Source: Microcystis aeruginosa NIES-2549 (GTDB lineage: Bacteria > Cyanobacteriota > Cyanobacteriia > Cyanobacteriales > Microcystaceae). Taken from it: DNA of 32,000 bases. This document shows, piece after piece, positions 7,552-32,000 of the stretch. Where the stretch lies: NCBI RefSeq assembly GCF_000981785.2, contig NZ_CP011304.1, positions 2,580,001 to 2,612,000 on the forward strand, in the 5' to 3' direction. The position numbers and the translations under genes were made by a program. Every line of letters begins with the position of its first letter. Position 1 is the first letter of the stretch. The notes under the pieces are model-generated. The model made no database searches, was not told the DNA's origin, and worked only from the letters and a program-made list of their open reading frames with translations.

Positions 7552-7953
7552 ATGACCCTATCTGAACAAGAAAGACAACAACTCTGTGACACTGCTCGGG
7601 AAGTGGCGAAACTTTCCTATTCTCCCTATTCCCGTTTTCGGGTGGGGGCAGCGGTCTTGACAGATAAAAAGATTTATGCTGGTACTAATGTAGAGAACGC
7701 TAGTTATGGCTTGAGTTTGTGTGCGGAAAGGGCAACTTTAGCGCAAATCATCGCGGCGGGCGATCGAGAAGTACGGGCGATCGCTATAGCCTGTATCGAT
7801 GGGAAGGATGATATTAGTCAGTTAACTCCCTGCGGAGCCTGTCGTCAATGGATAGCCGAATTAGCGCCGCAAGCGGAGATTATTATCTGTGGAACCCAGC
7901 AAAATTATCGTTTTAATCTCTCGGATTTACTGCCTTTTTCCTTTCGTTTTTAA
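7552..7953 (+). CDS. cdd: Cytidine deaminase
   Basis: The 133-aa product carries the zinc-binding motifs CAERATL and PCGACRQW. Confidence 0.9.
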   Translation: MTLSEQERQQLCDTAREVAKLSYSPYSRFRVGAAVLTDKKIYAGTNVENASYGLSLCAERATLAQIIAAGDREVRAIAIACIDGKDDISQLTPCGACRQWIAELAPQAEIIICGTQQNYRFNLSDLLPFSFRF

Positions 7954-8061
7954 CTGTGGGTAAAGTATCGGGGTTAAGGTACTACAACAACGGCTAAGAT
8001 AACTGGTATAAGAGCCATGATCTGACAAAACATTAGTATCTAGTAAATACTTGAGAGTCAT
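7927..8061 (-). pseudogene. N-terminal remnant of a PIN-domain (VapC-like) toxin
   Basis: The minus-strand ORF begins MTLKYLLDTNVLSD, a canonical PIN N-terminus. It then degenerates and stops after 44 aa inside the cdd 3' end. It lies 32 nt downstream of the antitoxin-like ORF. Confidence 0.4.
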
Positions 8062-8093
8062 AAATGAACATCTCTCCCGGTTGAGTTGTCGCG

Positions 8094-8273
8094 TCAATTA
8101 TCAAAAGTATCATCATCAAGACTTGTCAAATCTACCCTTTGCCTAAAATCTTGCAAGGCTGACCAAAAATCATTAACCTCTCTAATTTCTACTAATACCT
8201 CTTCATTATCGGGAAAATCAACTTCCTCTAATAACTCAATAATTTTGCCTTTTTTAATTCCTTTAACTAACAT
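8094..8273 (-). CDS. Small antitoxin-like protein (DUF104/AbrB-like pattern), 59 aa, not in the ORF track
   Basis: GGAG lies 8 nt upstream of the ATG. The product is MLVKGIKKGKIIELLEEVDFPDNEEVLVEIREV... with an acidic tail, the pattern of small antitoxins that pair with PIN toxins in cyanobacteria. Confidence 0.5.
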   Translation of the reverse strand: MLVKGIKKGKIIELLEEVDFPDNEEVLVEIREVNDFWSALQDFRQRVDLTSLDDDTFDN

Positions 8274-8308
8274 AATATCAACTCCTTCTAAATGACTCGA
8301 TTGTAGAA

Positions 8309-8428
<120 letters not shown>

Positions 8429-8640
8429 CTACTCACTGAAACTCATGGCACATTTTTTATATGTTTTGTCTATTACTTGAACGGGATATATTCAACTGTA
8501 TTGAACCATAGATCTGGTTGAAAAGCCCAAGTAAATTTCCAGTGGGGCTAAAGCTGACGAATATTACTAAAATCTCGCTAAATTGAAGATATGCTACTTG
8601 TCTTAGGCTGCTTCATCTCCAACACTTAAGAGGCTAATAA

Positions 8641-9906
8641 CTACATTTTATCTTCCCCTGTAGCGACATTTTTAAATCTTTCTTGGGCAGCAGAAAAAGC
8701 CTCTTTCATCACCCTTTGAATCCTCTTAGGATCGGGTTTTTTACCCCCCATTAAATCGCCAAAATAGACACAAGCACCCTCTCCTAGGGCCCAGGTATAG
8801 GCAGCGGACCAAGAAGCGGCGATAACACTGCCAAAACCGGGGATAAATTTCACCAATTCCCGACCGATGGCCTGGGCCAAAAAGCCGCCAGCGATCGCAC
8901 TGACGACTCCGCCGGCTTGGGATGGGGTTAAGACTTGACCGTATAATTTGCCTAAAACCCCCACCATTGACACTTGTAGGGCGGTTAACACGGGCATAGT
9001 CGCTAAGGGTAAGGGAATCGCCGCCAAGGTTGCCGCTATGACGGAAAAGGCTAACATATAGCGTCGGGCCACGTCCCGATAGAGATTGCCTAATTTATTG
9101 CTGGTTTCCCGATCTAAAAGTTGGTGGATGGTGTTAGCCTCGGCTTTTGGCAATAAATCGGCTAAATTGTCTCTAAATGCCTCTAAACCGTAAAAAACGG
9201 GGTTATAACCGTCTTCTTCTAGGGTAAAATCTATTAGCACAGAATTGTCATATAAATCCTTAAAAGTTTCTTTAATTTCTTGATAGGCGCGATTGATATC
9301 CTCGCAATCGGGAGGATAAGGGGGATGATCGGCGGTATTAGGAGGATAAAGCTGATGAAGACAGGTTACAGCCAGTAAACAGGGGATTTTAGGGTATTTT
9401 TGCCGCAGTTGTTTGGTAATTTCTAGGAGGCTATCGGTGGCAAAATCATTAATTTTTACCGTCACGATAAAAACTTGGGCGCGTCCCGTGTTTTCGCTTA
9501 AATCTGCTAATAATTCCGCGATTACCGTGTCTGTGTGTTGATAGGCATCCCCTAACCCCACCGTATCGGTAAAAATCAACAGGGGTAAGTCTTCCGCGGG
9601 GTAGGTGTAGCGCTGGGTGTTTTGGGTGTGGGGACGGAAACCTTGCCCGACGATTTCCGCCGAAACTCCCGTTATTCCCCGAATAATCGAACTTTTTCCC
9701 GTTTGCGGTTTGCCGATTAACAGCGCCTCGGTGGTGGGTAATTCTTGACGGACTTTTTCTAAAATTTCCGCCACTTGAGTGTCACTAACACTAAACCACT
9801 GGAGGACAGTATTAGTCAACTGGTCGATGGGGAGTCTTTTCATCACTTCCCCCGTGAGACTATTCCAAGTATTGACCAAAGAATCAATGGGCAGTTTATC
9901 AGTCAT
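8641..9906 (-). CDS. GTP-binding protein with a C-terminal membrane (DUF697-like) domain
   Basis: The P-loop is GKPQTGKSS and G3 is FTDTVGLGD. The C-terminus is hydrophobic and glycine-rich (AATLAAIPLPLATMPVLTALQVSMVG...). Confidence 0.8.
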   Translation of the reverse strand: MTDKLPIDSLVNTWNSLTGEVMKRLPIDQLTNTVLQWFSVSDTQVAEILEKVRQELPTTEALLIGKPQTGKSSIIRGITGVSAEIVGQGFRPHTQNTQRYTYPAEDLPLLIFTDTVGLGDAYQHTDTVIAELLADLSENTGRAQVFIVTVKINDFATDSLLEITKQLRQKYPKIPCLLAVTCLHQLYPPNTADHPPYPPDCEDINRAYQEIKETFKDLYDNSVLIDFTLEEDGYNPVFYGLEAFRDNLADLLPKAEANTIHQLLDRETSNKLGNLYRDVARRYMLAFSVIAATLAAIPLPLATMPVLTALQVSMVGVLGKLYGQVLTPSQAGGVVSAIAGGFLAQAIGRELVKFIPGFGSVIAASWSAAYTWALGEGACVYFGDLMGGKKPDPKRIQRVMKEAFSAAQERFKNVATGEDKM

Positions 9907-9964: not shown

Positions 9965-11140
9965 ATGACAAAAGCCGCAATTAGTCCGCAAGATTTATCA
10001 TGGCCTTTTTGGCCAATTGTACCACTTTATCCCTATGGTCAAAGACGGACAATTCGCCAAGAAGTGGTGAAAGATACGCTCTGGACATTTGAGCAATTGC
10101 AGGGTATTTTCTATGTGGTTGTGCCGATTCGCATGACGGTAATTAAGTTAGCATCCGGGGGTTTATTTGTTTATGCACCAGTGGCCCCGACTCCTGAATG
10201 TATTCGCTTAATGCGTGAGTTGGAAGGTGAACACGGGGAAGTTAAATATATTATTTTGCCGACGATTTCTGGGATTGAACATAAGGTTTTTGTTGGTCCT
10301 TTTGCCCGTTATTTTCCTAAGGCTATAGTTTATGTTGCTCCTAATCAATGGAGTTTTCCTCTTAATTTACCTTTGAGTTGGTTGGGTTTACCGGCAAAAC
10401 GAACAGAAATTTTACCTGCTGACTCGGCAACCACTCCTTTAGGAAAAGATTTTAGTTATGAAATTTTACCCGCAATCGATCTGAATGTGGGATACTTCTC
10501 GGAAGTGGCTTTTTTTCATCACTACTCTCAAACTCTGCTGCTGACTGATGGCATTATTTCTATCCCAGAAAATCCTCCTGCTATTTTAGAATTAGACCCC
10601 TATCCGCTGCTGTTTCACGCTAAAAATAGTGCTAAGGATCTGGTAGAGGATAACCCAGAAAATCGCCGTCGGGGTTGGCAGAGAATTTGTCTTTTTGCTC
10701 TTTATTTTCAACCTCCTGTTTTAGCTGTTCCCAATTGGATTAAGGTGTTTAGAGATGCTTTTACTGCTCAGGAAAGGAGTAAAAAAGCCTATTTTGGTTT
10801 ATTCCCTTTTCAATGGGGTGATGATTGGCAAAGGACTTTTTTAAATTTGCGTCGCGAGGGGAGGTTAATAGTAGCGCCAATTTTGCAAACTTTGATTCTT
10901 AATCGCAATACTGACGAGGTGAGTCAATGGGTTGATAGAATTTGCCAATGGCCGATTAAACAGGTTATTCCTTGTCATTTTGCTAGTCCGATTCAAGCTG
11001 ATATTCAAGAGTTTCAGCAGGCTTTTTCTTTCTTGTTAAAAGATTCTTATTTACCTAAAGATGACTTGGAATGTTTAGAAAGTATTGATAGTTTTTTAGT
11101 GCGCTGGCGATTGACTCCTCCTCCTGATAAAAAATTGTAA
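9965..11140 (+). CDS. Conserved hypothetical protein (DUF4336-like)
   Basis: This is a 391-aa uninterrupted ORF, divergent from the GTPase gene. The N-terminal WPFWPIVPLYPYGQRRT pattern is recalled from the DUF4336 family. The function is unknown. Confidence 0.7.
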   Translation: MTKAAISPQDLSWPFWPIVPLYPYGQRRTIRQEVVKDTLWTFEQLQGIFYVVVPIRMTVIKLASGGLFVYAPVAPTPECIRLMRELEGEHGEVKYIILPTISGIEHKVFVGPFARYFPKAIVYVAPNQWSFPLNLPLSWLGLPAKRTEILPADSATTPLGKDFSYEILPAIDLNVGYFSEVAFFHHYSQTLLLTDGIISIPENPPAILELDPYPLLFHAKNSAKDLVEDNPENRRRGWQRICLFALYFQPPVLAVPNWIKVFRDAFTAQERSKKAYFGLFPFQWGDDWQRTFLNLRREGRLIVAPILQTLILNRNTDEVSQWVDRICQWPIKQVIPCHFASPIQADIQEFQQAFSFLLKDSYLPKDDLECLESIDSFLVRWRLTPPPDKKL

Positions 11141-13810: not shown

Positions 13811-14233
13811 TTACATAGTTTCTAGTATTCTGGTTAATTCATTTTTGTTTTTCCATAATTTTACTTGAAAATCTTGGTATATTTTGGCGATAAAAGGAGC
13901 TTGATTACCTTGAATTATTTTTTCGATTTTATCGATTGTTTCGACAAAAATATTAATCATAGTTTGACGAGGTAAGTTGCCAGAAACTAGAACAAATACT
14001 TGAGCCTGATAACGGGCTATCTGTTGAACTTCTAAAATATTTCTACCAATGTTTACATCTTTAGTTAATACTATCCATCCTCTTTGACTAACAATAGGTA
14101 GCCAATCTGTATCCGGTGCATCTGGGGCAAAATGGGCATGATGAAATTCAATTTTAACCCCTATTTCTTGCAAAGCTTCACCGATAGATTTTCCTAAAGC
14201 GCGGTCGATAAAATAGGTGTATTGATAGGTCAT
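13811..14233 (-). CDS. PIN-like (DUF5615-type) putative toxin
   Basis: YFIDRALGKSIGEALQEIGVKIEFHH...APDTDWLPIVSQRGWIVLTKD fits the DUF5615 pattern. The ATG at 14233 overlaps the upstream stop as ATGA. The track start at 14251 is less likely. Confidence 0.65.
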   Translation of the reverse strand: MTYQYTYFIDRALGKSIGEALQEIGVKIEFHHAHFAPDAPDTDWLPIVSQRGWIVLTKDVNIGRNILEVQQIARYQAQVFVLVSGNLPRQTMINIFVETIDKIEKIIQGNQAPFIAKIYQDFQVKLWKNKNELTRILETM

Positions 14234-14946
14234 GCCGCTTGCCAATTGCACTCGAATAAAATCGCTTTTTCAATTTGCCAAGGTTGACAATTATAATCAT
14301 TGGCAATATCTTCTATAGAGTCCCCCGCATCATAAAGTTCTGTGACAACTTTAGTGGGAATTCCTGTTCCTGTGATCACGGGTTTTCCGAAGGAAATATT
14401 AGGGTCTATCTTTAGGACTTTATTGCTGAAGTCTTCCCCATTTATGTCGATAGTGGGAAAAAGCCGTGTGGCGATATCTTGTTCATCCCATTCAATACGA
14501 GTTAAGAGATTATTTAAGAATTGTTTCATCGTCAATTGTCCCGAACGGGAGGCATTAATTAAATGCTCAAATTGTTCGATAAAAAGGTCAGTTCCATCGG
14601 TACTAAATTGTTTTTGAACCAGAGGATGATCGGTGTTAAATTGTTCACTAATATAGTCTAGGGCCAGTCTAACTTTATCGAGAGGGATGTTATGAACTTT
14701 GCGAATAACTCTTAAAACGTGCGCTTCCACTAAGTTAGTAAAGGAAAGTTGCGGAATATTCGGATTAGGTCGTTGAATGAGGGGTAAAAACTCTTTTTGT
14801 CCTTTTTTTGTCGGGTAGGTGCGTCCTCGTACCCACGTTCTCAGAGTGGGCAAAGGAATATGGAGATAGCGCGCAGTATCGGCTATAGTGTAGGTGGGAA
14901 CATGATAGAGATGCTCTAGAGATAAGGGAGATGATGCTTTGACCAT
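14230..14946 (-). CDS. DUF433-domain protein with an N-terminal HTH-like extension (putative antitoxin/regulator)
   Basis: The C-terminus (FGKPVITGTGIPTKVVTELYDAGDSIEDIANDYNCQPWQIEKAILF) matches the DUF433 signature. The N-terminus (YTIADTARYLHIPLPTLRTWVRG) looks like a MerR/excisionase-type HTH. Confidence 0.7.
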   Translation of the reverse strand: MVKASSPLSLEHLYHVPTYTIADTARYLHIPLPTLRTWVRGRTYPTKKGQKEFLPLIQRPNPNIPQLSFTNLVEAHVLRVIRKVHNIPLDKVRLALDYISEQFNTDHPLVQKQFSTDGTDLFIEQFEHLINASRSGQLTMKQFLNNLLTRIEWDEQDIATRLFPTIDINGEDFSNKVLKIDPNISFGKPVITGTGIPTKVVTELYDAGDSIEDIANDYNCQPWQIEKAILFECNWQAA

Positions 14947-15229: not shown

Positions 15230-15424
15230 ATTAGCTTTTCGGTGGGATGCTTACAGGCAGCTGCTGATATATCTGTGATAATTCAAGAATCACTGATAAT
15301 TGCTCATTGTCGGTATTTCTGCAAATGTCAGATGCAGCCATAAAGTAGGATGAGGGCAGTGGACATTGGGGGCAAATGAGGTTATATTTTATCTAGAGAA
15401 GAACGTTTGTATGTCGCAACGATA

Positions 15425-18400
15425 ATGAGTAACTCACTGCCAAAATATCTAGAGGAAATCACAGGCATCTATCAACAGGGTAAGGCCACAGAACACAGTT
15501 ATCGTCCTGCTTTAAAAAAATTAATTGAATCCCTAAATAATAACCTACAAGCTCTCAATGAACCCAAAAGGATTGCTTGTGGCGCTCCAGATTTTGTGAT
15601 TAATCAGGGTATAGTAGAAATTGGTCATCTGGAAGCAAAAGATATCGGAACTTCTCTCAAAAAGGTTGAAAATACTCCCCAAATAAAACGTTATTTACAG
15701 GCTTTGGGTAATTTAATTATCACTGATCATTTAGAATTTCGTTGGTATGTATCGGGAGAATTGCGTCTATCAGCGTCCGTGGCAAGTCTTAATCAAAAAA
15801 AGCAAATTAAGCCTGATTCCCAGGGTATTTTACAAGTAGAACAATTGTTCTGTCAATTTTTCCTCTCAAAAGTTATTCAGATAACAACACCGCGAGAATT
15901 AGCGAAAAAAATGGCCGCTTTAGCGCAGTTAATTCGAGACGCAATCGGCCAAGCTTTAAAAGATCAAGATTGCGGGGGAATGTTGCGGCAACAATTGCAA
16001 TCTTTTCAACGAGTTTTAATTAGTGATCTCAATGAAGCGCAGTTCGCGGATATGTATGCACAAACAATCTGTTATGGTTTATTCGCAGCACGCTGTAATA
16101 CGGATCAAATAAGTTCTTTTTCCCGAGAAACGGCAGCATTTCGACTACCGAAAACTAACCCTTTTTTGCGGGGAATTTTTCATCAAATTGCTGGTACAGA
16201 ATTAGATGAGCGGATTACTTGGGCCGTGGATACTCTAGCGACTATTTTACAACAAACGGACATGGATGGTATTCTTAGCAGCTTTGGAAAACGCACACGC
16301 AAGCAGGATCCTGTGGTTCACTTTTATGAGACTTTTTTAGCCGAATACGATAGTAAAATGCGTGAGTCTAGGGGGGTTTATTATACCCCTGAACCCGTGG
16401 TTTCTTACATGGTTCGCAGTGTGGACTATATTCTAAAAAATAAGTTTCAGATTCCTAAAGGTTTGGCCGATGCCAAAAAAATTACGATTAAAAATCCTAA
16501 TGATAGCCAAGAAACTCAGGAAGTTCACCAAGTTTTAATCCTCGATCCTGCTGTGGGAACTGGCACTTTTTTACACTCGGTTATCGACCATATCTATGAT
16601 AGTTTTCGTCAACAGCAAGGGATGTGGTCTAGTTATGTCAGTAAACATTTATTACCCCGTCTCTTTGGGTTTGAATTACTGATGGCTCCCTACACCGTAG
16701 CACACATGAAATTAGGTTTACAACTTCAGGAATTAGGCTATGATTTTAGTGCCGATGAACGCTTAGGAATCTATCTCACCAACACCCTACAGGAAGCTTT
16801 TCAAATTCCCCCTGCTGATGGTTTTTTAAATCGCATTCGCGATGAAGCAGAGTCAGCGCAAGGTGTTAAGCAAGAACATCCTGTTATGGTGATTATTGGT
16901 AATCCACCCTACTCTGGACATTCCGTAAATACAGGAGACTGGATTAAGGAATTATTGAAGGGAAAAGATATTATTTCTGGAGAAAAAACTGCTAGTTATT
17001 TTGAAGTAGATGAGCAACCTTTAGCCGAAAAAAATCCCAAATGGTTAAATGATGATTATGTCAAATTTATTCGCTTTAGTCAATGGCGCATCGAGAAAAC
17101 TGGTTATGGAATTTTAGCTTTTGTTACTAATCATGGTTATTTGGATAACCCAACTTTTCGGGGAATGCGTCAAAGTTTATTAAAAACTTTTGATGATATT
17201 TATATCCTCGATTTACACGGTAATAGTAAGAAAAAAGAAGTTTGTCCCGACGGTTCACCGGATCAAAATGTGTTTGATATTCAGCAAGGTGTAGCTATTG
17301 GTATTTTTATTAAATATCACAATAGTTCTTCAAATTTAGCTAAAGTTTATCATGCTGATTTATGGGGCAAAAGAGAAATAATTGAGAATCAAGTTATTGT
17401 CGGTGGTAAGTATCATTGGTTAGATGAAAATGATCTTTATTCTACTTCTTGGCAGGAATTACAACCTGATTCTCCTTTTTATCTATTTAAACCTCAGAAT
17501 ATTAATCTGCGCTCGGAATACGATCAATTTTGGAAGATTACTGAAATTATGCCAGTGAATGTCTTAGGATTTCAGACTCACCGAGATAATTTTGCTATAG
17601 ATTTTGACAAAGATAAGATAACTAAAAGATTTCAAGAACTAAGAGAAAATAATCTTTCTAACGAAGATTATACTACTAAGTATGATATTAAAGATAACCG
17701 AGATTGGAAATTCAATAGAGTTCGTCAAGCAATTCGTTTAGATGACCAGTGGCAAAATAAAATAACTACTTGTCTATATCGTCCTTTTGATTGGCGTTGT
17801 TGCTATTTTAGTACAGTAGCAATGGACTATCCAAGACGGGAGTTAATTGATCATGTCTTGGGAAAAGAAAATTTATGCTTACTAGCTATTAGACAAATGC
17901 AAGATAAAGTTATATATTCTCATATACTTGTGTCTAAAGTTCCAGCTATTGATAGAAGTTTTGCTTGTTCAAGAGGCGCAGCTTCAGTATTCCCCCTCTA
18001 TCTTTACCCAACCAATACCCCAACCTTATTTGAAACAGAACCAACCAACTCGCCAAATGGTCGCCGTCCCAATCTAGCGCCTGAATTTATTAACAAACTT
18101 TCGGCAAAACTTGAATTAGAATTTATCAGTGATGGCAAAGGAGACGAAAAGAAAACCTTTGGTCCGGAAGACATTTTTAACTATATTTATGCCGTCTTTC
18201 ACTCTCCCCAATATCGCCAACGTTACGCCGAATTTTTAAAAATAGACTTTCCTCGTGTTCCCCTAACCAGTAATCAAGAATTATTCTGGGAATTAGTCAA
18301 AAAAGGTGACAAATTAGTACATTTACACCTAATGAAAGCAACGGGAAAAGAAATTAGTAGCTATCCCGTGGCGGGTTCTAATCTAGTCGAACAGGTGAAA

Positions 18401-18655
18401 TATAACGAAAATAAACAACAAATTTCGATTAATTCTGACCAGTATTTTGCGGGGATTCCGCCCCAAATTTGGAACTTTTATATCGGCGGTTATCAAGTGT
18501 GTCAGAAGTGGCTAAAAGACCGCAAAGGTCGCCACCTTAGCTACGACGACCTAGAACATTATCAACAAATTATCTCCATTTTGGGCGAATCGATCGCAAT
18601 TATGGAAACTATAGATATAATTATCAATAAATATGGTGGTTTCCCCTTTAGTTAA
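15425..18655 (+). CDS. Single-chain Type IIG/IIL-like restriction-modification enzyme (PD-ExK nuclease + gamma-class N6-adenine methyltransferase + specificity domain)
   Basis: The N-terminal GAPDFVI...GHLEAKD (15587-15640) is a PD-x13-ExK motif. Other motifs are HFYETFL...GVYYTPEPVV, motif I LDPAVGTGTF (16541-16570) and motif IV NPPY (16901-16912). The C-terminal DFPRVPL and YIGGYQVCQKWLKDRKGR are as seen in Type ISP/IIG C-terminal domains. The ATG at 15425 is preferred to the TTG at 15407. Confidence 0.85.
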   Translation: MSNSLPKYLEEITGIYQQGKATEHSYRPALKKLIESLNNNLQALNEPKRIACGAPDFVINQGIVEIGHLEAKDIGTSLKKVENTPQIKRYLQALGNLIITDHLEFRWYVSGELRLSASVASLNQKKQIKPDSQGILQVEQLFCQFFLSKVIQITTPRELAKKMAALAQLIRDAIGQALKDQDCGGMLRQQLQSFQRVLISDLNEAQFADMYAQTICYGLFAARCNTDQISSFSRETAAFRLPKTNPFLRGIFHQIAGTELDERITWAVDTLATILQQTDMDGILSSFGKRTRKQDPVVHFYETFLAEYDSKMRESRGVYYTPEPVVSYMVRSVDYILKNKFQIPKGLADAKKITIKNPNDSQETQEVHQVLILDPAVGTGTFLHSVIDHIYDSFRQQQGMWSSYVSKHLLPRLFGFELLMAPYTVAHMKLGLQLQELGYDFSADERLGIYLTNTLQEAFQIPPADGFLNRIRDEAESAQGVKQEHPVMVIIGNPPYSGHSVNTGDWIKELLKGKDIISGEKTASYFEVDEQPLAEKNPKWLNDDYVKFIRFSQWRIEKTGYGILAFVTNHGYLDNPTFRGMRQSLLKTFDDIYILDLHGNSKKKEVCPDGSPDQNVFDIQQGVAIGIFIKYHNSSSNLAKVYHADLWGKREIIENQVIVGGKYHWLDENDLYSTSWQELQPDSPFYLFKPQNINLRSEYDQFWKITEIMPVNVLGFQTHRDNFAIDFDKDKITKRFQELRENNLSNEDYTTKYDIKDNRDWKFNRVRQAIRLDDQWQNKITTCLYRPFDWRCCYFSTVAMDYPRRELIDHVLGKENLCLLAIRQMQDKVIYSHILVSKVPAIDRSFACSRGAASVFPLYLYPTNTPTLFETEPTNSPNGRRPNLAPEFINKLSAKLELEFISDGKGDEKKTFGPEDIFNYIYAVFHSPQYRQRYAEFLKIDFPRVPLTSNQELFWELVKKGDKLVHLHLMKATGKEISSYPVAGSNLVEQVKYNENKQQISINSDQYFAGIPPQIWNFYIGGYQVCQKWLKDRKGRHLSYDDLEHYQQIISILGESIAIMETIDIIINKYGGFPFS

Positions 18656-19130: not shown

Positions 19131-20123
19131 TTAAACTCCTAACACCTTTTCTAGATACTCGTAGGTTTCGTCATCAAATTTATCCCAGTCTAACTTATTA
19201 GCCAAATATTCATTAATAATCTTATTGCCATTTGGGTTGGGTTCTAATAATTTTAAAGTAGCCATGGCTAAAGCAAAGTAGCGCCTGTTATGCCATCCAT
19301 AGTTCAGAATAATTGCACCTATATCAATATCCGGATGATGAGAGATAAAATGTTCTTGAACATATATACTGAATCTTTCAACATTTTGGAATTTCCTATC
19401 CCCAAGGCAGTTATCACAATCACCTAAGAGTAATTCAGTGGCAAATTGATTAGCTTCTTTTTCTTCTCTATCATTATCAAATTTAATCTCTTCATCAACT
19501 AATACCCCATCTTTTAGATGTGCTAATGCTAAATGTCCTAACTCGTGCGCTAAGTCAAAAGCGAGTCTTGCCGACTGTTGATGTTTTGAACTAAGAATAA
19601 TTACAGGACAAGTGGAATGCCATTGAATTAATCCAGCAAATTTCTTAGTATTTTTAGGAAAATGATCAAAGTATCCCACCGCTATTCCCTGAGACCAACA
19701 ATAGTCTAAAAGAGAGGTCAAGTCAACCTTTGGCCAGTGACTTAAGATGTCTTTCCTGATGGTTTTAGCATCCTTAGATAAAGGGGTATAATTAACTTCA
19801 ACCCCCAAGGAAATTAACTCAGCAAACCGACTCGCTAAAGCTTGTGCTAGATGGGGATGTTGGTTATTTTGGCTATTGTGCTGTTTAAATTTAGTATGGG
19901 GAGGTCGATTAAATTTGACCTTTTCTTGAGGGGTTAATAAGGATGAGAGGTCAAGATTGAGCTTTTTGGCGATATAACCTGCCCCTTCTAGGACTGCAAC
20001 GGGTTTATCATTGAGTTCATCATCCCACCAACTGGGCAAGCCATTTTCTCGGACATAATCTTTTTTTAGTCCGATTTTTGAGAGTTTCCCGTAGAGGGCT
20101 GCCATGGTAAGGCTTTCTGTCAT
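19131..20123 (-). CDS. ImmA/IrrE-family (COG2856) zinc metallopeptidase with an N-terminal extension
   Basis: HELGH lies at 19533-19547 within FDLAHELGHLALAH, followed by EEKEANQFATELLL. The ATG at 20123 is preceded by AAGGAGG with 8 nt spacing and is preferred over the TTG at 20147. Confidence 0.85.
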   Translation of the reverse strand: MTESLTMAALYGKLSKIGLKKDYVRENGLPSWWDDELNDKPVAVLEGAGYIAKKLNLDLSSLLTPQEKVKFNRPPHTKFKQHNSQNNQHPHLAQALASRFAELISLGVEVNYTPLSKDAKTIRKDILSHWPKVDLTSLLDYCWSQGIAVGYFDHFPKNTKKFAGLIQWHSTCPVIILSSKHQQSARLAFDLAHELGHLALAHLKDGVLVDEEIKFDNDREEKEANQFATELLLGDCDNCLGDRKFQNVERFSIYVQEHFISHHPDIDIGAIILNYGWHNRRYFALAMATLKLLEPNPNGNKIINEYLANKLDWDKFDDETYEYLEKVLGV

Positions 20124-20345
20124 GGTTTCACCCTCCTTTGTCGGCAATACTAAGTTTTTTAAGGTTTTAGGGAATCAAAGTAGATCAGTATATTCTTATC
20201 TCTAAGATACCATCTCTAACTTAATTTTTGCCCACTGGCAAGAGTCCCTTTTCAGCGATAAATGACTCTCTACTCCCAACGAGAGTGATACAATTGTTAA
20301 CACCACAGACCAAGAGCCAATCGAAGCGAGAGAATAAAAACTGCT

Positions 20346-27669: not shown

Positions 27670-28449
27670 GTGTCTTTAATCGCCACACCTATGGCCATCA
27701 TCGCTCTGAAAGCTTGGTATCTGGACAAATACGAACCTATCCGCGAGGTTGTCAAACGTCCCCACGACTTGCGCTTAAGTCGCAATAGTCTCTTAAAATC
27801 GGGTTTAAGAGCCGATTTTCTCGATGATAGTCTGACAATACAGGGTTCTGTCTGGTTCCAACGCTATCTAGAAGGGGAAAGGGTGGAATTTTACCTCGAA
27901 GGTAGTGGCGGTTACGTCATCTCGAATATTGACCTGATTTCCCAAGAAATTTACTTTACTAAACAGGACCTCAGCACTTGGCTGGATCCCGTCATTTATT
28001 TTAGCTCCCAAAGCCAATTTAAGGACTCTAGCACCGCTTTAAAAACAGTTTTGACCGAAACCGTCGAAAATCTCAATAAACGCTCCCGTTTGCCCTTAAA
28101 CGTGGAAGAAACGCCCCGAACTGAGGGCAATGTCACCAGATTGAGTGATAGTCAATTACGCAAAATTCGCAAAAGTTTATTATTTATTGCCGATGCTACG
28201 GCGATTAGCCAAAAGGAAACGGAATTACTGCCTAGTCCCCTAGTGGGTGTAGAATTGGGTTATGCGATCGCTTGTAAACAGGGCGGACAAATTCTGCTAA
28301 CCTATCAAAATCGAGCGGAATTAAAGGGTAAACTAGCTTTTGACCTGCCAAGCTACCAAAAATTAACTTTCTCGGATCTTAGCGAATTGCGTCTCACTTT
28401 CCCGCCTTTAATGGCAACTTTATTACAAAAATTCAATCTGATTAGTTAA
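27670..28449 (+). CDS. Hypothetical protein; the C-terminal half is possibly a TIR-like / nucleoside 2-deoxyribosyltransferase-like fold
   Basis: This is an uninterrupted ORF with a GTG at 27670 and an alternative ATG at 27691. C-terminal pattern: PVIYFSSQSQFKDSS (beta strand followed by Ser-rich), LLFIADAT, and SPLVGVELGYAIACKQGGQILL (a conserved-Glu helix followed by a strand). Confidence 0.6.
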   Translation: MSLIATPMAIIALKAWYLDKYEPIREVVKRPHDLRLSRNSLLKSGLRADFLDDSLTIQGSVWFQRYLEGERVEFYLEGSGGYVISNIDLISQEIYFTKQDLSTWLDPVIYFSSQSQFKDSSTALKTVLTETVENLNKRSRLPLNVEETPRTEGNVTRLSDSQLRKIRKSLLFIADATAISQKETELLPSPLVGVELGYAIACKQGGQILLTYQNRAELKGKLAFDLPSYQKLTFSDLSELRLTFPPLMATLLQKFNLIS

Positions 28450-28454
28450 AAAAA

Positions 28455-28706
28455 ATGAGTAGAAAGGCTGACGAGTACGCAGTACATTTGTTCTTAAGCA
28501 ATGGACATCGCGAGGAGGTACGTTTTTTGACTATCCAAGAATTTCAAAAGTGGTACAGTAACGAATTAGTTCCGAAAGCCGATTCCAGGGATTTTATCAA
28601 TGTTCCGATCAGAAATATCCAAGGGGAATATATGGTTTTACGTCCGGCTAGTGTCATTGCTATTCGCGTGGAACCCGTCTTTTTTGGCAGTGTGGAAAGA
28701 ATATAA
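28455..28706 (+). CDS. Hypothetical 83-aa protein
   Basis: The ATG ORF starts 5 nt after the preceding stop. I recognise no motif. Confidence 0.55.
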   Translation: MSRKADEYAVHLFLSNGHREEVRFLTIQEFQKWYSNELVPKADSRDFINVPIRNIQGEYMVLRPASVIAIRVEPVFFGSVERI

Positions 28707-28748: not shown

Positions 28749-29156
28749 TTAGAGATTATTGATAATTCTCTCAATGTCAGCTTGGATTTGATTGCTGACT
28801 TTGCCTTGCCAGCGTTCTTTTAATTCCCTTAATCCCACTTCTGCGTATTGACAGATCTTATCTAAAACTTCTTTGCCGTCGCTGGGTTGAGGATAGGAAT
28901 TCTTTTTACAGATAATATAAATTCCTGCGGTTAAAGCTAAAATAACTTCTGGATCGATTTGGCTAATATTAATTAAATCTTGTCGATTGCTCAGATTGAT
29001 TCCGTAGATACTGAAGTCTTGTTTAATGGCAAAAGCAGCGGCGAATAAATAAGCATCTACCATGCGCTCAAAGGTTTTATTATCTTTTAGTACCTGTAGA
29101 TAATTTCTGGAAGTTTCCGAGGCATAAATCTTCAAACTGGAATCGATTCTCTGCAT
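28749..29156 (-). CDS. 135-aa protein translationally coupled to the DndD-like ATPase (possibly a DndE-like or dnd-associated small protein)
   Basis: Its ATG shares one base with the ATPase TAA (TAATG at 29154-29158). The product is predicted helical. The layout, a short N-terminal strand and then helices (SRNYLQVLKDNKTFERMVDAYLFAAAFAIKQD), loosely recalls DndE. Confidence 0.7.
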   Translation of the reverse strand: MQRIDSSLKIYASETSRNYLQVLKDNKTFERMVDAYLFAAAFAIKQDFSIYGINLSNRQDLINISQIDPEVILALTAGIYIICKKNSYPQPSDGKEVLDKICQYAEVGLRELKERWQGKVSNQIQADIERIINNL

Positions 29157-31105
29157 TAGTAACTCTCCATCACTTCAATCACGGAAGCATCTTCATCGGC
29201 AGCCAAACGGTGTATTTTAAAAATATCAGTAGTGTGGGGAAGCAAGAGATTTAAAAGTGGATCGGGAAGATCGCGATCCGTGGCTAAAATAATCACTTGG
29301 GAGTTGAAATTAGGGAGAGAGTTAATAATATTTTTTTGATGTTCTTTGTCTAAATGGCCAAAAGGTGTATCCATAATTAGGGGGACACAGGTATCAGTTA
29401 TTTGATTTAAACCAGTGATAAAAGCAAAAGCTAAAGCTTCCTTTTCTCCTGCACTTAAGACATCGGGATTTAATAATTTTCCCGTGAGGGTACGGATTCC
29501 TAAAGTGTATTCGGGAGTGATTTCTACTCCTCTATATTCCTCTGGTTTGTTGGTTACTTGTAAATAGCGATCGCTGGTTGCTTGATTAATCATTTTTTGG
29601 GAATTATCGATATGCCATTCGATTAATTCGTTAGTGGCATTTTTTAAACCTCTGGCCATTTTAACCTGATTAGATAACATCGAGGTGGTTTGATTTTCAC
29701 TAGCTAAAATTTCTACTTCTTGGCGTAAATTTTCTAATTGCTTTTCTTTGATTTCGATTTCCTTTTGCAAGCGTTCTATCCTTTCTTCAATCTCTTTAAC
29801 TTTTTGTTCCGATTCGCCAACTTTTCGCCAAATATCATTAGCTGATTCTTGATTTATTCCCGTGGTTTCCTGTTTTAGCTGTTTAATATGTTGATTAATT
29901 TCTTCGATTTCTTCTTCTAAAAGATCTCTTTGTAAAAGCAATTGACTATAATTGCTAAATTTGGCATTATCTCGGATAATTCCCTGTAAATCAATTCTAA
30001 TTTGGTCTTTTTCTATTCTGGTGGCGTTGTCCATTTCTAAGGACTCTAGTTCGGCAATTTTTTCAAGGATAAAGTCACGAGAATTTTTATCTAAACAACG
30101 ACCACATAGACAGCTTTCATCGTCAATTATTGTTTTTAAAACTGCTGTAGAATTAGTTTTATAAGTGCTTTTTAAGCTAGTAACTTGCAAATCGTCAGCC
30201 ATTTCCTGCACAAAGTTAATCAGCAAAGGTATCGAAGCTTTTTTTAACCAAGAATCAATAGACTTTTGTAGGTTATTTAACTGAGTTTGTAAACCGATAC
30301 GCTTTTTCTCTAAGTCATGAATTTCTTCTAATTTTTCTCGTAAACTTTCAATCTGAGCGGCTTTTTCTTGAGCATCATGATGGATAATTATAGCTTTTTT
30401 TTCCTCATCTTTAGCATTTTTAAGCTGACCTTTTTGAAGACAAATTTCTTCTTCTAATTCTCGTAATTGTTGCATCTTATATTTAAAAGTCTGACTGGTT
30501 CCCTCCGCTTTATTTAAACGGTTTTCTAATTCCTGCAAGGCTTTTTCTGTATCATCACGCAGATTTCTTAATTCAGGGATACCCAAAACTTTTTCAATTG
30601 CTTCTTTTGCTTCTTTGGTTTGAGTTATCTGGGTATATTGTTCGATTTTTGAGCCATCAAAACAGAAAAAATCTCGAATAGATTTAGGAAGCAATGCTTC
30701 GATATATTCCCTAGAGTTACTTGCTTTTATGGTTCCATCTTCATAAAATAATGCTTCCTCTACGCTTGGATAAGAAGTGATACCATTATCTTTTAATTTC
30801 GCTGTGCGACTGATAAAGAAATTTTTCTCGTTTCTAGTAAAATTTAATTCTACCCGCATTTCTTTTTCTTCTACTGATGATGAATCATCCTTACCTCGAT
30901 AAAAATAGGTTTTCAGAGTCTCTTTAGATACAATATCTCCCCCATAGAGACACCATAAAATCGCCGTCATCAGAGAAGTTTTACCGTGGCCATTATTCCC
31001 GAATATAATATGAATATTTCTGTCGGGATGCAGGTTAAAAGTAATATTTTGACTAGGGTAACATTTCCAATTAGTTAAGCGAATTTGTTTCAGTCTCAAA
31101 GTCAT
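29156..31105 (-). CDS. DndD-like SMC/ABC-type ATPase with a coiled coil and a CxCxxC hook
   Basis: Walker A is GNNGHGKTS (30974-31000), followed by FFCFDGSKIEQY. Two long heptad-rich charged segments flank CLCGRC (30095-30112). The ABC signature is LSAGEKE (29438-29458) and the Walker B/D-loop is PLIMDTPFGHLD (29348-29383), followed by SQVIILATD. Confidence 0.85.
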   Translation of the reverse strand: MTLRLKQIRLTNWKCYPSQNITFNLHPDRNIHIIFGNNGHGKTSLMTAILWCLYGGDIVSKETLKTYFYRGKDDSSSVEEKEMRVELNFTRNEKNFFISRTAKLKDNGITSYPSVEEALFYEDGTIKASNSREYIEALLPKSIRDFFCFDGSKIEQYTQITQTKEAKEAIEKVLGIPELRNLRDDTEKALQELENRLNKAEGTSQTFKYKMQQLRELEEEICLQKGQLKNAKDEEKKAIIIHHDAQEKAAQIESLREKLEEIHDLEKKRIGLQTQLNNLQKSIDSWLKKASIPLLINFVQEMADDLQVTSLKSTYKTNSTAVLKTIIDDESCLCGRCLDKNSRDFILEKIAELESLEMDNATRIEKDQIRIDLQGIIRDNAKFSNYSQLLLQRDLLEEEIEEINQHIKQLKQETTGINQESANDIWRKVGESEQKVKEIEERIERLQKEIEIKEKQLENLRQEVEILASENQTTSMLSNQVKMARGLKNATNELIEWHIDNSQKMINQATSDRYLQVTNKPEEYRGVEITPEYTLGIRTLTGKLLNPDVLSAGEKEALAFAFITGLNQITDTCVPLIMDTPFGHLDKEHQKNIINSLPNFNSQVIILATDRDLPDPLLNLLLPHTTDIFKIHRLAADEDASVIEVMESY

Positions 31106-31114
31106 AGGGTTTAT

Positions 31115-31282
31115 TTATTGTGGGGAGTCGGTATATTTTTCGATAAGTTCGACAATTTTAGGTGATAGCCGCCGATTTTTTAGAGTAATTTTTTCCACTT
31201 CTAAAGCCATGGCTTCCTTGAGCAGTTGAGGAGGTATCTCATATTTTTGTGCCAGATCTTTAATTTTAGCAGTTATGTCCAT
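31115..31282 (-). CDS. 55-aa helical protein, first gene of the ATPase operon (not in the ORF track)
   Basis: The ATG-to-TAA ORF encodes MDITAKIKDLAQKYEIPPQLLKEAMALEVEKITLKNRRLSPKIVELIEKYTDSPQ. It ends 9 nt before the ATPase ATG. Confidence 0.5.
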   Translation of the reverse strand: MDITAKIKDLAQKYEIPPQLLKEAMALEVEKITLKNRRLSPKIVELIEKYTDSPQ

Positions 31283-31431
31283 GAATTTTCTGGTGGTTGG
31301 GGAGTGGAGATTGTCAAGTCTTAATTCTTATTTGCCAAGAGATACCTTGATGAGGATAAATTTTATAACATATCTGAGTAGGTGAGGCCATAGTAAGTTA
31401 ATTCTTGGACGAATCTCTTAATAATTGTACA

Positions 31432-31826
31432 TCACCATCCCCTCAAGGAGGAAAGACATCGATTAAAGTCCCTTTTTTTTGCCACGGCTGCCCGGAGAAT
31501 TCTGCCGCGACGTTGAATAAATTGACGAGGAGAAGCATCAGCAGCGAGGATAATTCCCTGACTGACTTGTGGGATATCAACCCCCTCATCGAGATATTTT
31601 ACTGCCACTAATGCGTCAAGATTTCCCGAAGATAACTGTAATAATAACATAACTCGATCGCTGTCTAAGGAACTATAGCGAGCGACTCTTTTTCCCTGAC
31701 GTGCTAATCGGGTACTAATCTAAACAAGGTAGATAAAATTTTCCAATAATATTATGGCACTCCCTGGGGTATTCTTCTAATAGGTCTAATTGTTGTAGTG
31801 ACAATTTAAATTCCTCCTCGATCTCG
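31432..31826 (-). pseudogene. Decayed SF2 helicase C-terminal domain (type III restriction res / DEAD-like family)
   Basis: Motifs V-VI are recognisable (LDALVAVKYLDEGVDIPQVSQGIILAADASPRQFIQRRGRILR). The reading frame is broken upstream by an in-frame TAG and a frame change near 31700-31720. It is broken downstream at an A8 run (31473-31480), after which KKGTLIDVFPP continues in another frame. Motifs I-III are absent. Confidence 0.55.
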
Positions 31827-32000
31827 TTTTAAGTCATAAATAACTTTTTCATAACACCAGCTTTTACTGCGTTGGGGATTTCTCAATCTAATACTTAAAA
31901 ACAATCGACTCGCTAAAGCTTTATCTCCATTCACGAGGGTTAAAAGTTCTCTTTCCAAGTAGAAAAGTTTAGGCTGACTGATTGGCAAATTTTGACGATT
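31806..32000 (-). CDS. Small conserved-looking hypothetical protein, open to the window edge
   Basis: The frame is open from nt 32000. The sequence ...LERELLTLVNGDKALASRLFLSIRLRNPQRSKSWCYEKVIYDLKRDR resembles small multi-copy cyanobacterial ORFs. The start is undetermined. Confidence 0.4.
   Translation of the reverse strand, partial: NRQNLPISQPKLFYLERELLTLVNGDKALASRLFLSIRLRNPQRSKSWCYEKVIYDLKRDRGGI

What the first reader, a model, noticed from the sequence alone, without database searches (positions are those of the whole stretch)
28749..31282. Orphan DndD-like SMC ATPase operon (55 aa + 649-aa CxCxxC-hook ATPase + coupled 135 aa) with no DNA-modification partner
Three co-directional minus-strand genes are tightly packed. 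There is a 9-nt gap after the 55-aa ORF and a 1-nt TAATG overlap between the ATPase and the 135-aa gene.

The ATPase has the full DndD/SbcC-type layout: Walker A GNNGHGKTS, two coiled-coil arms around a CLCGRC hook, the LSAGEKE signature and DTPFGHLD. The genes that give DndD or SspC their known role are all absent from the window: a cysteine desulfurase (DndA/SspA), a PAPS-reductase-like protein (DndC/SspD) and DndB. No recognisable nuclease effector of Lamassu, Septu or Gabija type is present either.

The two small partners match no family I can name. The 135-aa protein only loosely recalls DndE or dnd-associated small proteins. The locus is strikingly AT-rich compared with neighbouring core genes: nt 29701-29760 has 16 G+C of 60, while the secA segment 21781-21840 has 34 of 60. 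It sits next to a decayed helicase.

Together this looks like a compact, horizontally acquired SMC-ATPase module, plausibly a defence or DNA-surveillance system, whose composition is not one of the described systems.
Basis: partly seen in the sequence, partly recalled or inferred. Interest (0 to 1): 0.8.

Follow-up and report, generated by a model that had tools for sequence, protein, structure and literature searches.

The report
Known Pbe defence operon, nuclease gene deleted
The three genes are pbeB, pbeC and pbeD of the already described PbeABCD (CxC ABC-ATPase/DndE) anti-virus system, and the "decayed helicase" next door is its fourth gene pbeA, destroyed by a 1.5-kb deletion; so this is a damaged copy of a known system, not a new one.

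Summary
All three ORFs, the motifs, the 9-nt gap, the TAATG overlap and the GC counts check out. The interpretation (an undescribed orphan SMC-ATPase module) is not supported.

- **ATPase (649 aa):** it matches PADLOC PbeC over its full length (1087 bits) and falls below the curated DndD cutoff. Its invariant CxC motif sits in the loop at the apex of a ~340-aa coiled coil.
- **55-aa protein:** this is the PbeB "small protein" (Pfam Sp-DndD, sub-threshold, in 11 of 12 orthologues).
- **135-aa protein:** it folds like DndE (best PDB matches by TM-score), which fits PbeD.
- **Missing effector:** 4 of 12 syntenic Microcystis loci carry an intact PbeA (PLD nuclease + SF2 helicase, 683 aa) directly upstream of pbeB. 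The window and 5 other loci carry the same 1,538-bp out-of-frame deletion, and 3 loci lack pbeA entirely.
- **Selection:** the pbeA remnant evolves neutrally, while pbeC and pbeD remain constrained.
- **Modification partner:** no dnd genes lie within ±10 kb, which is the published "solitary Pbe" situation. In more distant relatives, dnd-type genes are adjacent in 5 of 6 loci.

The system itself is already known. The only mildly new point is that pbeBCD is kept long-term without pbeA.

The parts
28749..29156 (-). pbeD: 135-aa DndE-like (clade-2 DndE cognate) DNA-binding partner of the ATPase. Its start overlaps the pbeC stop (TAATG).
   Evidence: AF2 pLDDT 92.7. The best PDB matches by TM-score are DndE 7x4e and 4lrv (TMq 0.55-0.58, TMt 0.67-0.72, prob 0.93), but Foldseek E-values are only 0.4-0.6. 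There are no Pfam, NCBIfam or PADLOC sequence hits; only 1 of 33 family members hits PADLOC PbeD. It always lies directly downstream of PbeC. Segregating sites by codon position are 9/6/27.
29156..31105 (-). pbeC: 649-aa CxC-type coiled-coil ABC ATPase. Walker A at nt 30974-31000, CLCGRC hook at nt 30095-30112, signature LSAGEKE at nt 29438-29458, Walker B/D-loop at nt 29348-29380.
   Evidence: PADLOC PbeC PDLC02726 scores 1086.8 bits over 3-644 of a 637-position profile. TIGR03185 DndD scores 184.9, below its 245.85 cutoff. C332 and C334 are invariant in 36 homologues at 36-92% identity. The AF2 model has helices 176-328, a loop 329-339 that holds the CxC motif, and helices 340-517. The nearest folds are Rad50, SMC, LmuB and JetC.
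31115..31282 (-). pbeB: 55-aa small protein (the 'SP' / Sp-DndD family), 9 nt upstream of pbeC.
   Evidence: Pfam PF20306 Sp-DndD: E 1.2e-3, 19.3 bits (cutoff 27.2), nearly full length. 11 of 12 orthologues hit it, best E 9.4e-5. PADLOC PbeB: E 0.011. It is present between pbeA and pbeC in L014, L015, L016 and L018. It evolves fast: dN/dS 0.46-0.59.
31283..31362 (-). 80-nt pbeA-pbeB spacer, kept even in strains that have lost pbeA completely. It holds a promoter-like site at 31338-31310 (TTGGCA-17-GACAAT).
   Evidence: Alignment of upstream regions. The promoter scan gives a 9/12 match, but the number of sites in the region is not above chance. This is a candidate only.
31363..31804 (-). Pseudogene of pbeA (PLD/HKD nuclease + SF2 helicase). 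Codons 1-28 (31804-31721) are joined out of frame to codons 542-683 (31719-31366). The deletion junction is at 31720|31719, and there is a further ~58-nt deletion plus frameshifts.
   Evidence: tblastn with the intact L002 PbeA. The junction maps to L002 nt 7776|9315, a 1,538-bp deletion. All six deletion alleles have stop codons in all three frames. Segregating sites 22/23/26 by codon position (p = 0.82) indicate neutral evolution.
31809..32000 (-). 3' part of a 118-aa ORF that abuts the pbeA start and runs off the window. It may belong to the island, since it is lost together with pbeA in three strains.
   Evidence: tblastn, 92% identity to L002 7334-7690. It is absent in L003, L006 and L009, where rsmE lies next to the pbeB upstream region. 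No family hits.

Best explanation
**Identity (shown).** The locus is a solitary copy of the PbeABCD system, also called the CxC ABC-ATPase/DndE conflict system, in a Microcystis-type cyanobacterium. The gene order on the minus strand is psi-pbeA, pbeB (55 aa), pbeC (649 aa), pbeD (135 aa). A 1,538-bp out-of-frame deletion removed codons 29-541 of pbeA. That took out the PLD nuclease domain and the helicase core, and the remnant is now drifting neutrally.

**How the intact system works (inferred from the family literature and the models here).**
- PbeC dimerises through its CxC zinc hook at the tip of an antiparallel coiled coil, like a short Rad50.
- PbeC works with PbeD, a DndE-like double ribbon-helix-helix DNA binder, as an ATP-driven complex that scans or clamps DNA.
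- The small, fast-evolving PbeB acts as a regulator or trigger sensor.
- PbeA supplies translocation and DNA cleavage.

**Status in this genome (inferred).** The effector arm is gone and no phosphorothioate-modification genes are nearby. What is left can at most bind or clamp DNA. I judge it roughly 60:40 that pbeBCD still does something useful, such as weak PbeA-independent interference or work with a partner encoded elsewhere, because pbeC and pbeD remain under purifying selection.
For: - **PbeC identity:** full-length PADLOC PbeC match at 1087 bits. It scores below the DndD cutoff and far below the Rad50, SMC and SbcC cutoffs. The CxC motif is invariant and sits in the apex loop of the AF2 model.
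- **PbeB:** sub-threshold Sp-DndD hits in 11 of 12 orthologues.
- **PbeD:** the high-confidence model is closest to the DndE structures.
- **PbeA:** intact in L001, L002, L004 and L005 (PADLOC PbeA 728 bits; PLDc_2 + ResIII + Helicase_C). The window and 5 other loci share an identical deletion junction.
- **Gene order elsewhere:** A-B-C-D is conserved in L014, L016 and L018.
- **Selection among deletion-allele strains:** segregating sites by codon position are 22/23/26 for the remnant (p = 0.82), 93/70/180 for pbeC (p = 1.6e-13) and 9/6/27 for pbeD (p = 1e-4). A neutrally evolving pbeC would keep its ORF in only 0.3-1.6% of simulations. dN/dS of pbeC is 0.30 in deletion strains and 0.33 in intact strains.
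- **Literature:** the component assignments and the solitary occurrence are published (PMC10853773, PMC6459918). A pbeA deletion left less than 10-fold residual protection, whereas pbeB, pbeC and pbeD were indispensable.
Against: - PbeD has no significant sequence-profile match to PbeD or DndE models, and the Foldseek E-values are weak (0.4-0.6).
- The PbeB hits are all below Pfam's gathering score.
- Published Pbe activity depended on PT modification. No dnd genes lie within ±10 kb here, and no Microcystis DndC appeared among the 120 listed cyanobacterial DndC hits. The trio may therefore be inert.
- pbeC is itself disrupted in one strain (L009, 126-bp insertion with stops). A related locus (L013) has lost pbeB and the 5' end of pbeC, so decay of the trio does occur.
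- The pbeC tree does not separate strains cleanly by pbeA state; the window groups with an intact-pbeA strain. Recombination therefore blurs the 'after the deletion' argument.
- Transcription, zinc binding and complex formation have not been tested.
Confidence: 0.85

Rival explanations
1. The whole locus is a dead relic. After pbeA was lost, and with no PT modification in the host, pbeB, pbeC and pbeD have no function and simply have not yet decayed.
For: - The pbeA pseudogene.
- pbeC is disrupted in L009.
- A larger deletion has occurred in L013.
- The codon-position pattern of PbeB cannot be told apart from neutral (6/6/10, p = 0.48).
- Published Pbe activity needs PT modification and all four genes.
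Against: - pbeC and pbeD show clear codon-position constraint among strains whose pbeA remnants have diverged by about 8% in a neutral pattern.
- pbeC is intact in 6 of 6 deletion-allele strains, against an expected 0.3-1.6% per lineage under neutrality.
- All catalytic motifs are conserved.
- dN/dS is no higher in deletion strains than in intact strains.
Confidence: 0.3
2. The pair is the modification-side ATPase/DndE core. It would act like DndD-DndE with dndA/B/C or a methylase encoded elsewhere in the genome, marking host DNA rather than restricting invaders.
For: - In Spirulina (L017) the small protein, the CxC ATPase and the DndE-like gene sit next to DndB and a protein with a faint PAPS_reduct hit, with no PbeA and no separate DndD seen within 8 kb.
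- PMC10853773 describes CxC-DndE cores coupled to modification genes.
- A Type-ISP-like N6 methyltransferase lies about 10 kb away in the window.
Against: - The ATPase scores below the DndD equivalog cutoff.
- Where canonical dnd genes are adjacent (L013, L016, L018), they bring their own DndD, which is only 23-28% identical and, in the one pair I inspected (L013), lacks the CxC motif.
- Sister Microcystis loci carry the PbeA nuclease-helicase in the operon.
- No dnd genes lie within ±10 kb in any of the 13 Microcystis-type loci.
- No Microcystis DndC was among the 120 listed hits.
Confidence: 0.07
3. One reading: a compact SMC-ATPase defence module with no nuclease effector and no modification partner, whose composition matches no described system.
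For: - Pfam and NCBIfam give no above-threshold family for the two small proteins.
- No dnd or ssp genes are in the window.
Against: - Full-length PbeC match.
- The PbeA remnant lies in the window itself, and intact PbeA sits at the same position in sister strains.
- The A-B-C-D order is conserved across phyla.
- The system and its solitary form are published.
Confidence: 0.02

Closest known systems
PbeABCD of Halalkalicoccus jeotgali A29 (Xiong et al. 2019, PMC6459918), which is the CxC ABC-ATPase/DndE-anchored system of Krishnan/Aravind (PMC10853773)
   Same: - The operon order is the same: nuclease-helicase, small protein, coiled-coil ABC ATPase with a CxC hook, then a DndE-like protein of about 135-150 aa.
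- The sizes are comparable: 55/649/135 aa here against 66 aa (PbeB) and 152 aa (PbeD) there.
- The domain set of PbeA in sister strains is the same (PLD + ResIII + Helicase_C).
- Occurrence without dnd genes is already documented.
   Different: - Here pbeA is a pseudogene (1,538-bp frameshifting deletion).
- No dndCDEA lies within 10 kb.
- PbeD is too divergent for the PADLOC PbeD model.
- The host is a cyanobacterium.
- No activity has been tested.
DndD-DndE core of the DndABCDE phosphorothioation system (TIGR03185; PF08870; PDB 4lrv, 7x4e)
   Same: - A coiled-coil ABC ATPase of about 650 aa is paired with a small double-RHH DNA-binding protein encoded immediately downstream.
- The ATPase aligns end to end with the DndD profile (185 bits).
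   Different: - The score is below the DndD cutoff of 245.85.
- The ATPase has the CxC hook, which DndD lacks according to PMC10853773 and according to the alignment with the L013 DndD.
- There is no DndA, DndB or DndC.
- True DndD paralogues in related loci are only 23-28% identical.
Rad50/SbcC-Mre11/SbcD
   Same: An ABC head split by an antiparallel coiled coil with a Cys-based hook at the apex. Rad50 structures are the best structural matches.
   Different: - The coiled coil is much shorter.
- The hook motif is CxC, not CxxC.
- There is no Mre11/SbcD partner.
- NCBIfam Rad50 and SbcC scores (24-75 bits) are far below their cutoffs (478-1087).
Lamassu (LmuB), Wadjet (JetC) and other SMC-like defence ATPases
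   Same: A coiled-coil ABC ATPase used as a DNA sensor in a defence operon with a separate nuclease effector. These are structural neighbours.
   Different: - The 25 best of the 86 matching PADLOC families are all PbeC or DndD.
- The partner proteins are different: no LmuA/LmuC and no JetA/B/D.

Membership tests
PbeABCD / CxC ABC-ATPase-DndE system | PbeC: full-length match to the PbeC (CxC-clade ABC ATPase) profile | tested here: met
   PADLOC PDLC02726: 1086.8 bits, residues 3-644 on profile positions 1-637 of 637. A further 21 PbeC models are among the top 25 families.
PbeABCD / CxC ABC-ATPase-DndE system | A CxC zinc-hook motif at the apex of a ~400-aa coiled coil, with no SMC hinge | tested here: met
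   CLCGRC at aa 332-337. C332 and C334 are invariant in 36 homologues. In the AF2 model the motif lies in the loop 329-339 between helices 176-328 and 340-517. Zinc binding itself was not tested.
PbeABCD / CxC ABC-ATPase-DndE system | PbeD: a DndE cognate encoded immediately downstream of the ATPase | tested here: met
   Position: the start overlaps the pbeC stop. Fold: the DndE structures 7x4e and 4lrv are the best TM matches (TMq 0.55-0.58, TMt 0.67-0.72, prob 0.93).
PbeABCD / CxC ABC-ATPase-DndE system | PbeD or DndE recognisable by a sequence profile | tested here: not met
   No Pfam, NCBIfam or PADLOC hit for the window protein. Only 1 of 33 family members hits PADLOC PbeD, and none hits Pfam. 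No PDB sequence hit. PMC10853773 notes that clade-2 DndEs are highly divergent.
PbeABCD / CxC ABC-ATPase-DndE system | PbeB: a small, rapidly evolving protein between pbeA and pbeC | tested here: inconclusive
   Position and size fit. Pfam Sp-DndD hits are nearly full length but below the gathering score (19.3 against 27.2 bits; 11 of 12 orthologues at E <= 0.01, best 9.4e-5). PADLOC PbeB: E 0.011. dN/dS is 0.46-0.59.
PbeABCD / CxC ABC-ATPase-DndE system | PbeA: an HKD/PLD endonuclease fused to an SF2 helicase, encoded upstream | tested here: not met
   The window holds only a frameshifted remnant (aa 1-28 plus 542-683). An intact 683-aa PbeA sits at the same position in L001, L002, L004 and L005 (PADLOC PbeA 727.9 bits). 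The locus is therefore a degraded member.
PbeABCD / CxC ABC-ATPase-DndE system | Link to a DNA modification module (dndCDEA or a methylase). This is common in the family but not universal. | tested here: not met
   No dnd genes within ±10 kb in the Microcystis loci whose flanks I examined (L002, L007) or among the larger ORFs I scanned in the window. A PAPS-reductase (DndC-type) gene is adjacent in 5 of 6 distant relatives, though the Pfam hit is only faint in L017. The whole genome could not be searched.
PbeABCD / CxC ABC-ATPase-DndE system | Antiviral activity that depends on PT modification | not testable with these tools
   Shown only for the H. jeotgali system (PMC6459918).
DndD (TIGR03185 equivalog) | A score at or above the curated cutoff, and no CxC hook | tested here: not met
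   184.9 bits against a cutoff of 245.85. The CxC motif is present. The genuine DndD of L013 is 27% identical and has a gap at the hook.
Housekeeping SMC / RecN / SbcC / Rad50 | A match to the equivalog models at their cutoffs | tested here: not met
   Rad50 74.5 (cutoff 700), SMC 34 (cutoff 567), SbcC 23.9 (cutoff 478.5), RecF 40.3 (cutoff 172); RecN is not listed.

The most novel reading that the evidence does not exclude
pbeB-pbeC-pbeD is a working module in its own right. After the PbeA nuclease-helicase was lost, and with no phosphorothioate marking in the host, the CxC ATPase, the DndE-like protein and the small protein would still be kept by selection across Microcystis lineages. They might provide nuclease-independent interference, for example clamping or blocking replication of incoming DNA as Xiong et al. 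observed, or another DNA-surveillance role. The recurrent erosion of PbeA in cyanobacteria would then reflect selection against a costly nuclease arm. I saw that erosion in two Microcystis alleles, in Hydrococcus (loss of the PLD domain), in Spirulina (PbeA absent) and in L013.
Probability: 0.3. Interest if true: 0.5.

Novelty: already known. Interest (0 to 1): 0.25.

Why it matters
As a discovery it matters little. The system is in PADLOC, and two papers describe its components, including the solitary form.

It is useful in two smaller ways:
- **Annotation:** these Microcystis genes are labelled 'AAA family ATPase', 'SbcCD subunit C', 'SMC' or 'DndD' in public records. They should read PbeC/CxC-ABC, and the unannotated small ORFs should read PbeB and PbeD.
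- **A natural experiment:** Microcystis populations carry intact, internally deleted and fully deleted pbeA alleles at one syntenic site, while pbeC and pbeD stay constrained. This could be used to test whether the ATPase/DndE core acts without its nuclease. That question bears on the unresolved dispute over whether Pbe cleaves DNA.

Tried and rejected
- **Exact-sequence lookup of the ATPase:** found nothing, so the source strain is not in that index.
- **Sequence-profile routes from the 135-aa protein to DndE all failed.** These were Pfam, NCBIfam, PADLOC and PHROGs; PDB sequence searches with 13- and 33-sequence profiles; and family-wide scans. Only the fold comparison linked it to DndE. PF27807, precomputed on two homologues, is not in the Pfam copy available here.
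- **Promoter and terminator scan:** no signal above chance and no intrinsic terminator.
- **DndC search:** I searched for a Microcystis DndC using a cyanobacterial DndC query. None appeared among the 120 hits listed out of 8000. This is suggestive, not proof of absence.
- **Mean pairwise dN/dS for pbeC in the 'pbeA-absent' class:** distorted by the L009 insertion, so L009 was excluded afterwards.
- **First attempt to anchor the remnant's start codon:** failed. Codon-position counts on the C-terminal segment replaced it.
- **Microhomology at the deletion junction:** considered, but nothing convincing was found.
- **Lamassu, Septu, Gabija and Wadjet membership:** rejected, because the 25 best of the 86 matching PADLOC families are all PbeC or DndD.
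Full report
**1.

The three minus-strand ORFs are exactly where stated: 135 aa at 28749-29156, 649 aa at 29156-31105 and 55 aa at 31115-31282. Other details also check out:
- The 9-nt spacer (TAA-ATAAACCCT-ATG) and the TAATG overlap are present.
- The four motifs are present: GNNGHGKTS at aa 36-44, CLCGRC at aa 332-337, LSAGEKE at aa 550-556 and LIMDTPFGHLD at aa 576-586.
- The two GC counts (16/60 and 34/60) are reproduced. The locus is 34.8% GC against 41.2% for the window.
- Among the larger ORFs I scanned with Pfam in the rest of the window there is no dnd or ssp gene. They are housekeeping genes (pheS and others), an IS605 TnpB and a 1082-aa N6-methylase/Type-ISP-C protein about 10 kb away. 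argS is also encoded in the window.

**2. What the ATPase is**

- PADLOC matches it end to end to a PbeC model: PDLC02726, 1086.8 bits, residues 3-644 on profile positions 1-637 of 637. Another 21 PbeC models and three DndD models fill the rest of the top 25.
- NCBIfam's DndD equivalog TIGR03185 aligns over the whole length but scores 184.9, below its cutoff of 245.85. Rad50, SMC, SbcC and RecF models score far below their cutoffs.
- In an alignment of 36 homologues (36-92% identity), C332 and C334 are invariant, and so are the Walker A, signature and D-loop residues.
- An AlphaFold2 model (pLDDT 82) shows a split ABC head, helices 176-328, a non-helical loop 329-339 that carries CLCGRC, and returning helices 340-517. 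This is a ~340-residue antiparallel coiled coil with the Cys motif at its tip.
- The nearest solved folds are Rad50, SMC heads, LmuB and JetC.
- This matches the published definition of the CxC clade of ABC ATPases, the sister clade of DndD. That clade is distinguished by a CxC zinc hook and a ~400-residue coiled coil, and it is equated with PbeC (PMC10853773).

**3. The two small proteins**

*The 55-aa protein.* It hits Pfam PF20306, 'Sp-DndD, small protein found in certain Dnd systems', over nearly its full length but below threshold (19.3 against 27.2 bits). Of 12 orthologues, 11 do the same, with a best E-value of 9.4e-5. PADLOC PbeB gives E 0.011. It evolves fast, with dN/dS of 0.46-0.59, as described for the 'SP' component.

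*The 135-aa protein.* It has no sequence-profile hit anywhere. Its model, however, is confident (pLDDT 92.7). The best matches by TM-score among 350,542 PDB chains are the two solved DndE proteins, 7x4e and 4lrv (TMq 0.55-0.58, TMt 0.67-0.72, rmsd 3.0-3.4 Å, prob 0.93). The Foldseek E-values are weak, at 0.4-0.6. The literature says that PbeD is a divergent 'clade-2' DndE. Position, size and fold all fit.

**4. The missing effector is next door**

A scan of species-representative genomes with the ATPase returned 12 loci. All are Microcystis, at 85-92% identity, with the same flanking genes: argS, a Mo-nitrogenase-C-like gene, a 259-aa gene and an 83-aa gene on one side, and a 118-aa ORF, rsmE and DUF6391 on the other.

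In L001, L002, L004 and L005, a 683-aa ORF lies directly upstream of the 55-aa gene. It carries PLDc_2, ResIII and Helicase_C domains and matches PADLOC PbeA at 727.9 bits over its full length.

In the window, tblastn with this protein finds only residues 1-28 (31804-31721) and 542-683 (31719-31366), in different frames. The junction corresponds to L002 nt 7776|9315. That is a 1,538-bp deletion, which is not a multiple of three. The same junction is present in L007, L008, L010, L011 and L012.

L003, L006 and L009 lack both pbeA and the 118-aa ORF but keep the 80-nt spacer in front of pbeB.

**5. Conservation beyond Microcystis**

| Locus | Source | Pbe genes | dnd-type genes within 8-10 kb |
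|---|---|---|---|
| L014 | metagenome | A-B-C-D intact | contig too short to tell |
| L018 | Pseudanabaena | A-B-C-D | DndB, DndC and DndD follow |
| L016 | Pyrinomonadaceae | A-B-C-D | full dndBCDE plus dndA |
| L015 | Hydrococcus rivularis | PbeA has lost aa 51-175 (the PLD domain) in frame; B-C-D present | DndC nearby |
| L017 | Spirulina subsalsa | no PbeA; small protein, C and D present | DndB and a protein with a faint PAPS_reduct hit adjacent |
| L013 | metagenome | PbeA N-terminal remnant fused to a 5'-truncated PbeC, then D | DndC and DndD adjacent |

A PAPS-reductase (DndC-type) gene is adjacent in five of six distant relatives, while the Microcystis loci are solitary within ±10 kb. 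Solitary pbeAC is already documented, at 320 of 553 pairs (PMC6459918). A search with a cyanobacterial DndC listed many cyanobacterial genera but no Microcystis among its top 120 hits. That is suggestive only.

**6. Is the trio still functional?**

I counted segregating sites at codon positions 1, 2 and 3.

| Gene | Strains | Pos 1 / 2 / 3 | p (uniform) |
|---|---|---|---|
| pbeA C-terminal remnant | six deletion-allele strains | 22 / 23 / 26 | 0.82 |
| pbeA, same segment | four intact strains | 0 / 1 / 8 | 0.002 |
| pbeC | deletion-allele strains | 93 / 70 / 180 | 1.6e-13 |
| pbeD | deletion-allele strains | 9 / 6 / 27 | 1e-4 |
| pbeB | deletion-allele strains | 6 / 6 / 10 | 0.48 |

Further points:
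- Every remnant has stops in all three frames.
- dN/dS of pbeC is 0.30 in deletion strains and 0.33 in intact strains. For pbeD it is 0.14 and 0.17, against 0.07-0.13 for the neighbouring genes.
- All ATPase motifs are conserved.
- Substitution-only simulations at 4-6% divergence leave the pbeC ORF open in only 0.3-1.6% of trials.
- The remnants have diverged about as much (0.08-0.09) as the third positions of pbeC and pbeD. Most of this divergence therefore probably post-dates the deletion.

Caveats:
- The pbeC tree does not separate strains by pbeA state, and the window pairs with an intact-pbeA strain. This points to recombination.
- pbeC is disrupted by a 126-bp insertion in L009.
- Nothing is known about expression.
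- In the only experimental system, deleting pbeA left less than 10-fold protection, while pbeB, pbeC and pbeD were indispensable, and activity required PT modification.

**7. Mechanism**

*Shown:* the domain and motif content, the operon structure and the pseudogene state of pbeA.

*Inferred from family knowledge (PMC10853773, PMC6459918):* PbeC dimerises through the zinc hook. With the double-RHH PbeD it forms an ATP-dependent DNA-scanning or clamping complex. PbeB regulates it. PbeA translocates along DNA and cleaves it.

In this genome the cleavage arm is gone, so any remaining activity must be nuclease-independent or use a partner encoded elsewhere.

**8. Verdict**

The system is already known. 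The locus is a degraded, solitary PbeABCD copy. The modestly interesting residue is the population-level polymorphism of pbeA alongside continued constraint on pbeC and pbeD.

Noticed in passing
window 27670-28449 (+) and 28455-28706 (+): A 259-aa and an 83-aa gene pair lies convergent with pbeD. The 259-aa protein has weak hits to Pfam Nuc_deoxyrib_tr (E 1.2e-3) and to a PADLOC TIR-PNTD model (E 0.03). The pair is conserved in all 13 loci with dN/dS of about 0.1 and core-like GC. It could be a separate nucleotide-targeting conflict gene pair.
   Followed up: no
window 31809-32000 (-), runs off the window; L002 7334-7690: A 118-aa ORF ends 1 nt before the pbeA start. It is lost together with pbeA in L003, L006 and L009, and it carries variable repeat insertions in L011 and L012. 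A homologue of its C-terminal half lies next to the Hydrococcus pbe locus (L015 3708-3851). It has no family hit, and it is unclear whether it belongs to the island.
   Followed up: partly
L015 4002-5696; L017 7600-8001; L013 8053-10004: PbeA erosion recurs in cyanobacteria. Hydrococcus PbeA has lost the PLD nuclease domain in frame (aa 51-175). Spirulina subsalsa has no PbeA upstream of its small-protein/PbeC/PbeD trio. L013 has a deletion running from pbeA into the 5' end of pbeC.
   Followed up: partly
L001, L002, L004, L005 at 7692-9743: The intact pbeA alleles are unusually alike. In the C-terminal 143 codons, segregating sites are 0/1/8, against 47/37/78 in the adjacent pbeC of the same four strains. 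This hints at a recent spread or re-introduction of the intact allele by recombination.
   Followed up: partly
L009, about 10440-10570 (inside pbeC): A 126-bp insertion with two in-frame stops interrupts pbeC just after the FFC of the Q-loop region. It looks like a small mobile or MITE-like insert.
   Followed up: no
window 15407-18655 (+): A 1082-aa protein has N6_Mtase and Type_ISP_C specificity domains but no nuclease or helicase part. It may be an orphan or truncated Type ISP/IIG methyltransferase.
   Followed up: no
window 4284-5396 (+); 14230-14946 (-); 19131-20147 (-): An IS605 OrfB/TnpB (Cas12f-like TNB domain), an HTH_66+DUF433 protein and an IrrE-like Peptidase_M78 protein are present. 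These are mobile-element or defence-island-type genes scattered among core genes.
   Followed up: no
public records of the PbeC homologues: These proteins are variously named 'AAA family ATPase', 'Nuclease SbcCD subunit C', 'chromosome segregation protein SMC' or 'DndD'. The Hydrococcus rivularis 'SMC' (P0258, 50% identical) appears to be the protein that Xiong et al. cited as the SMC relative of PbeC.
   Followed up: no
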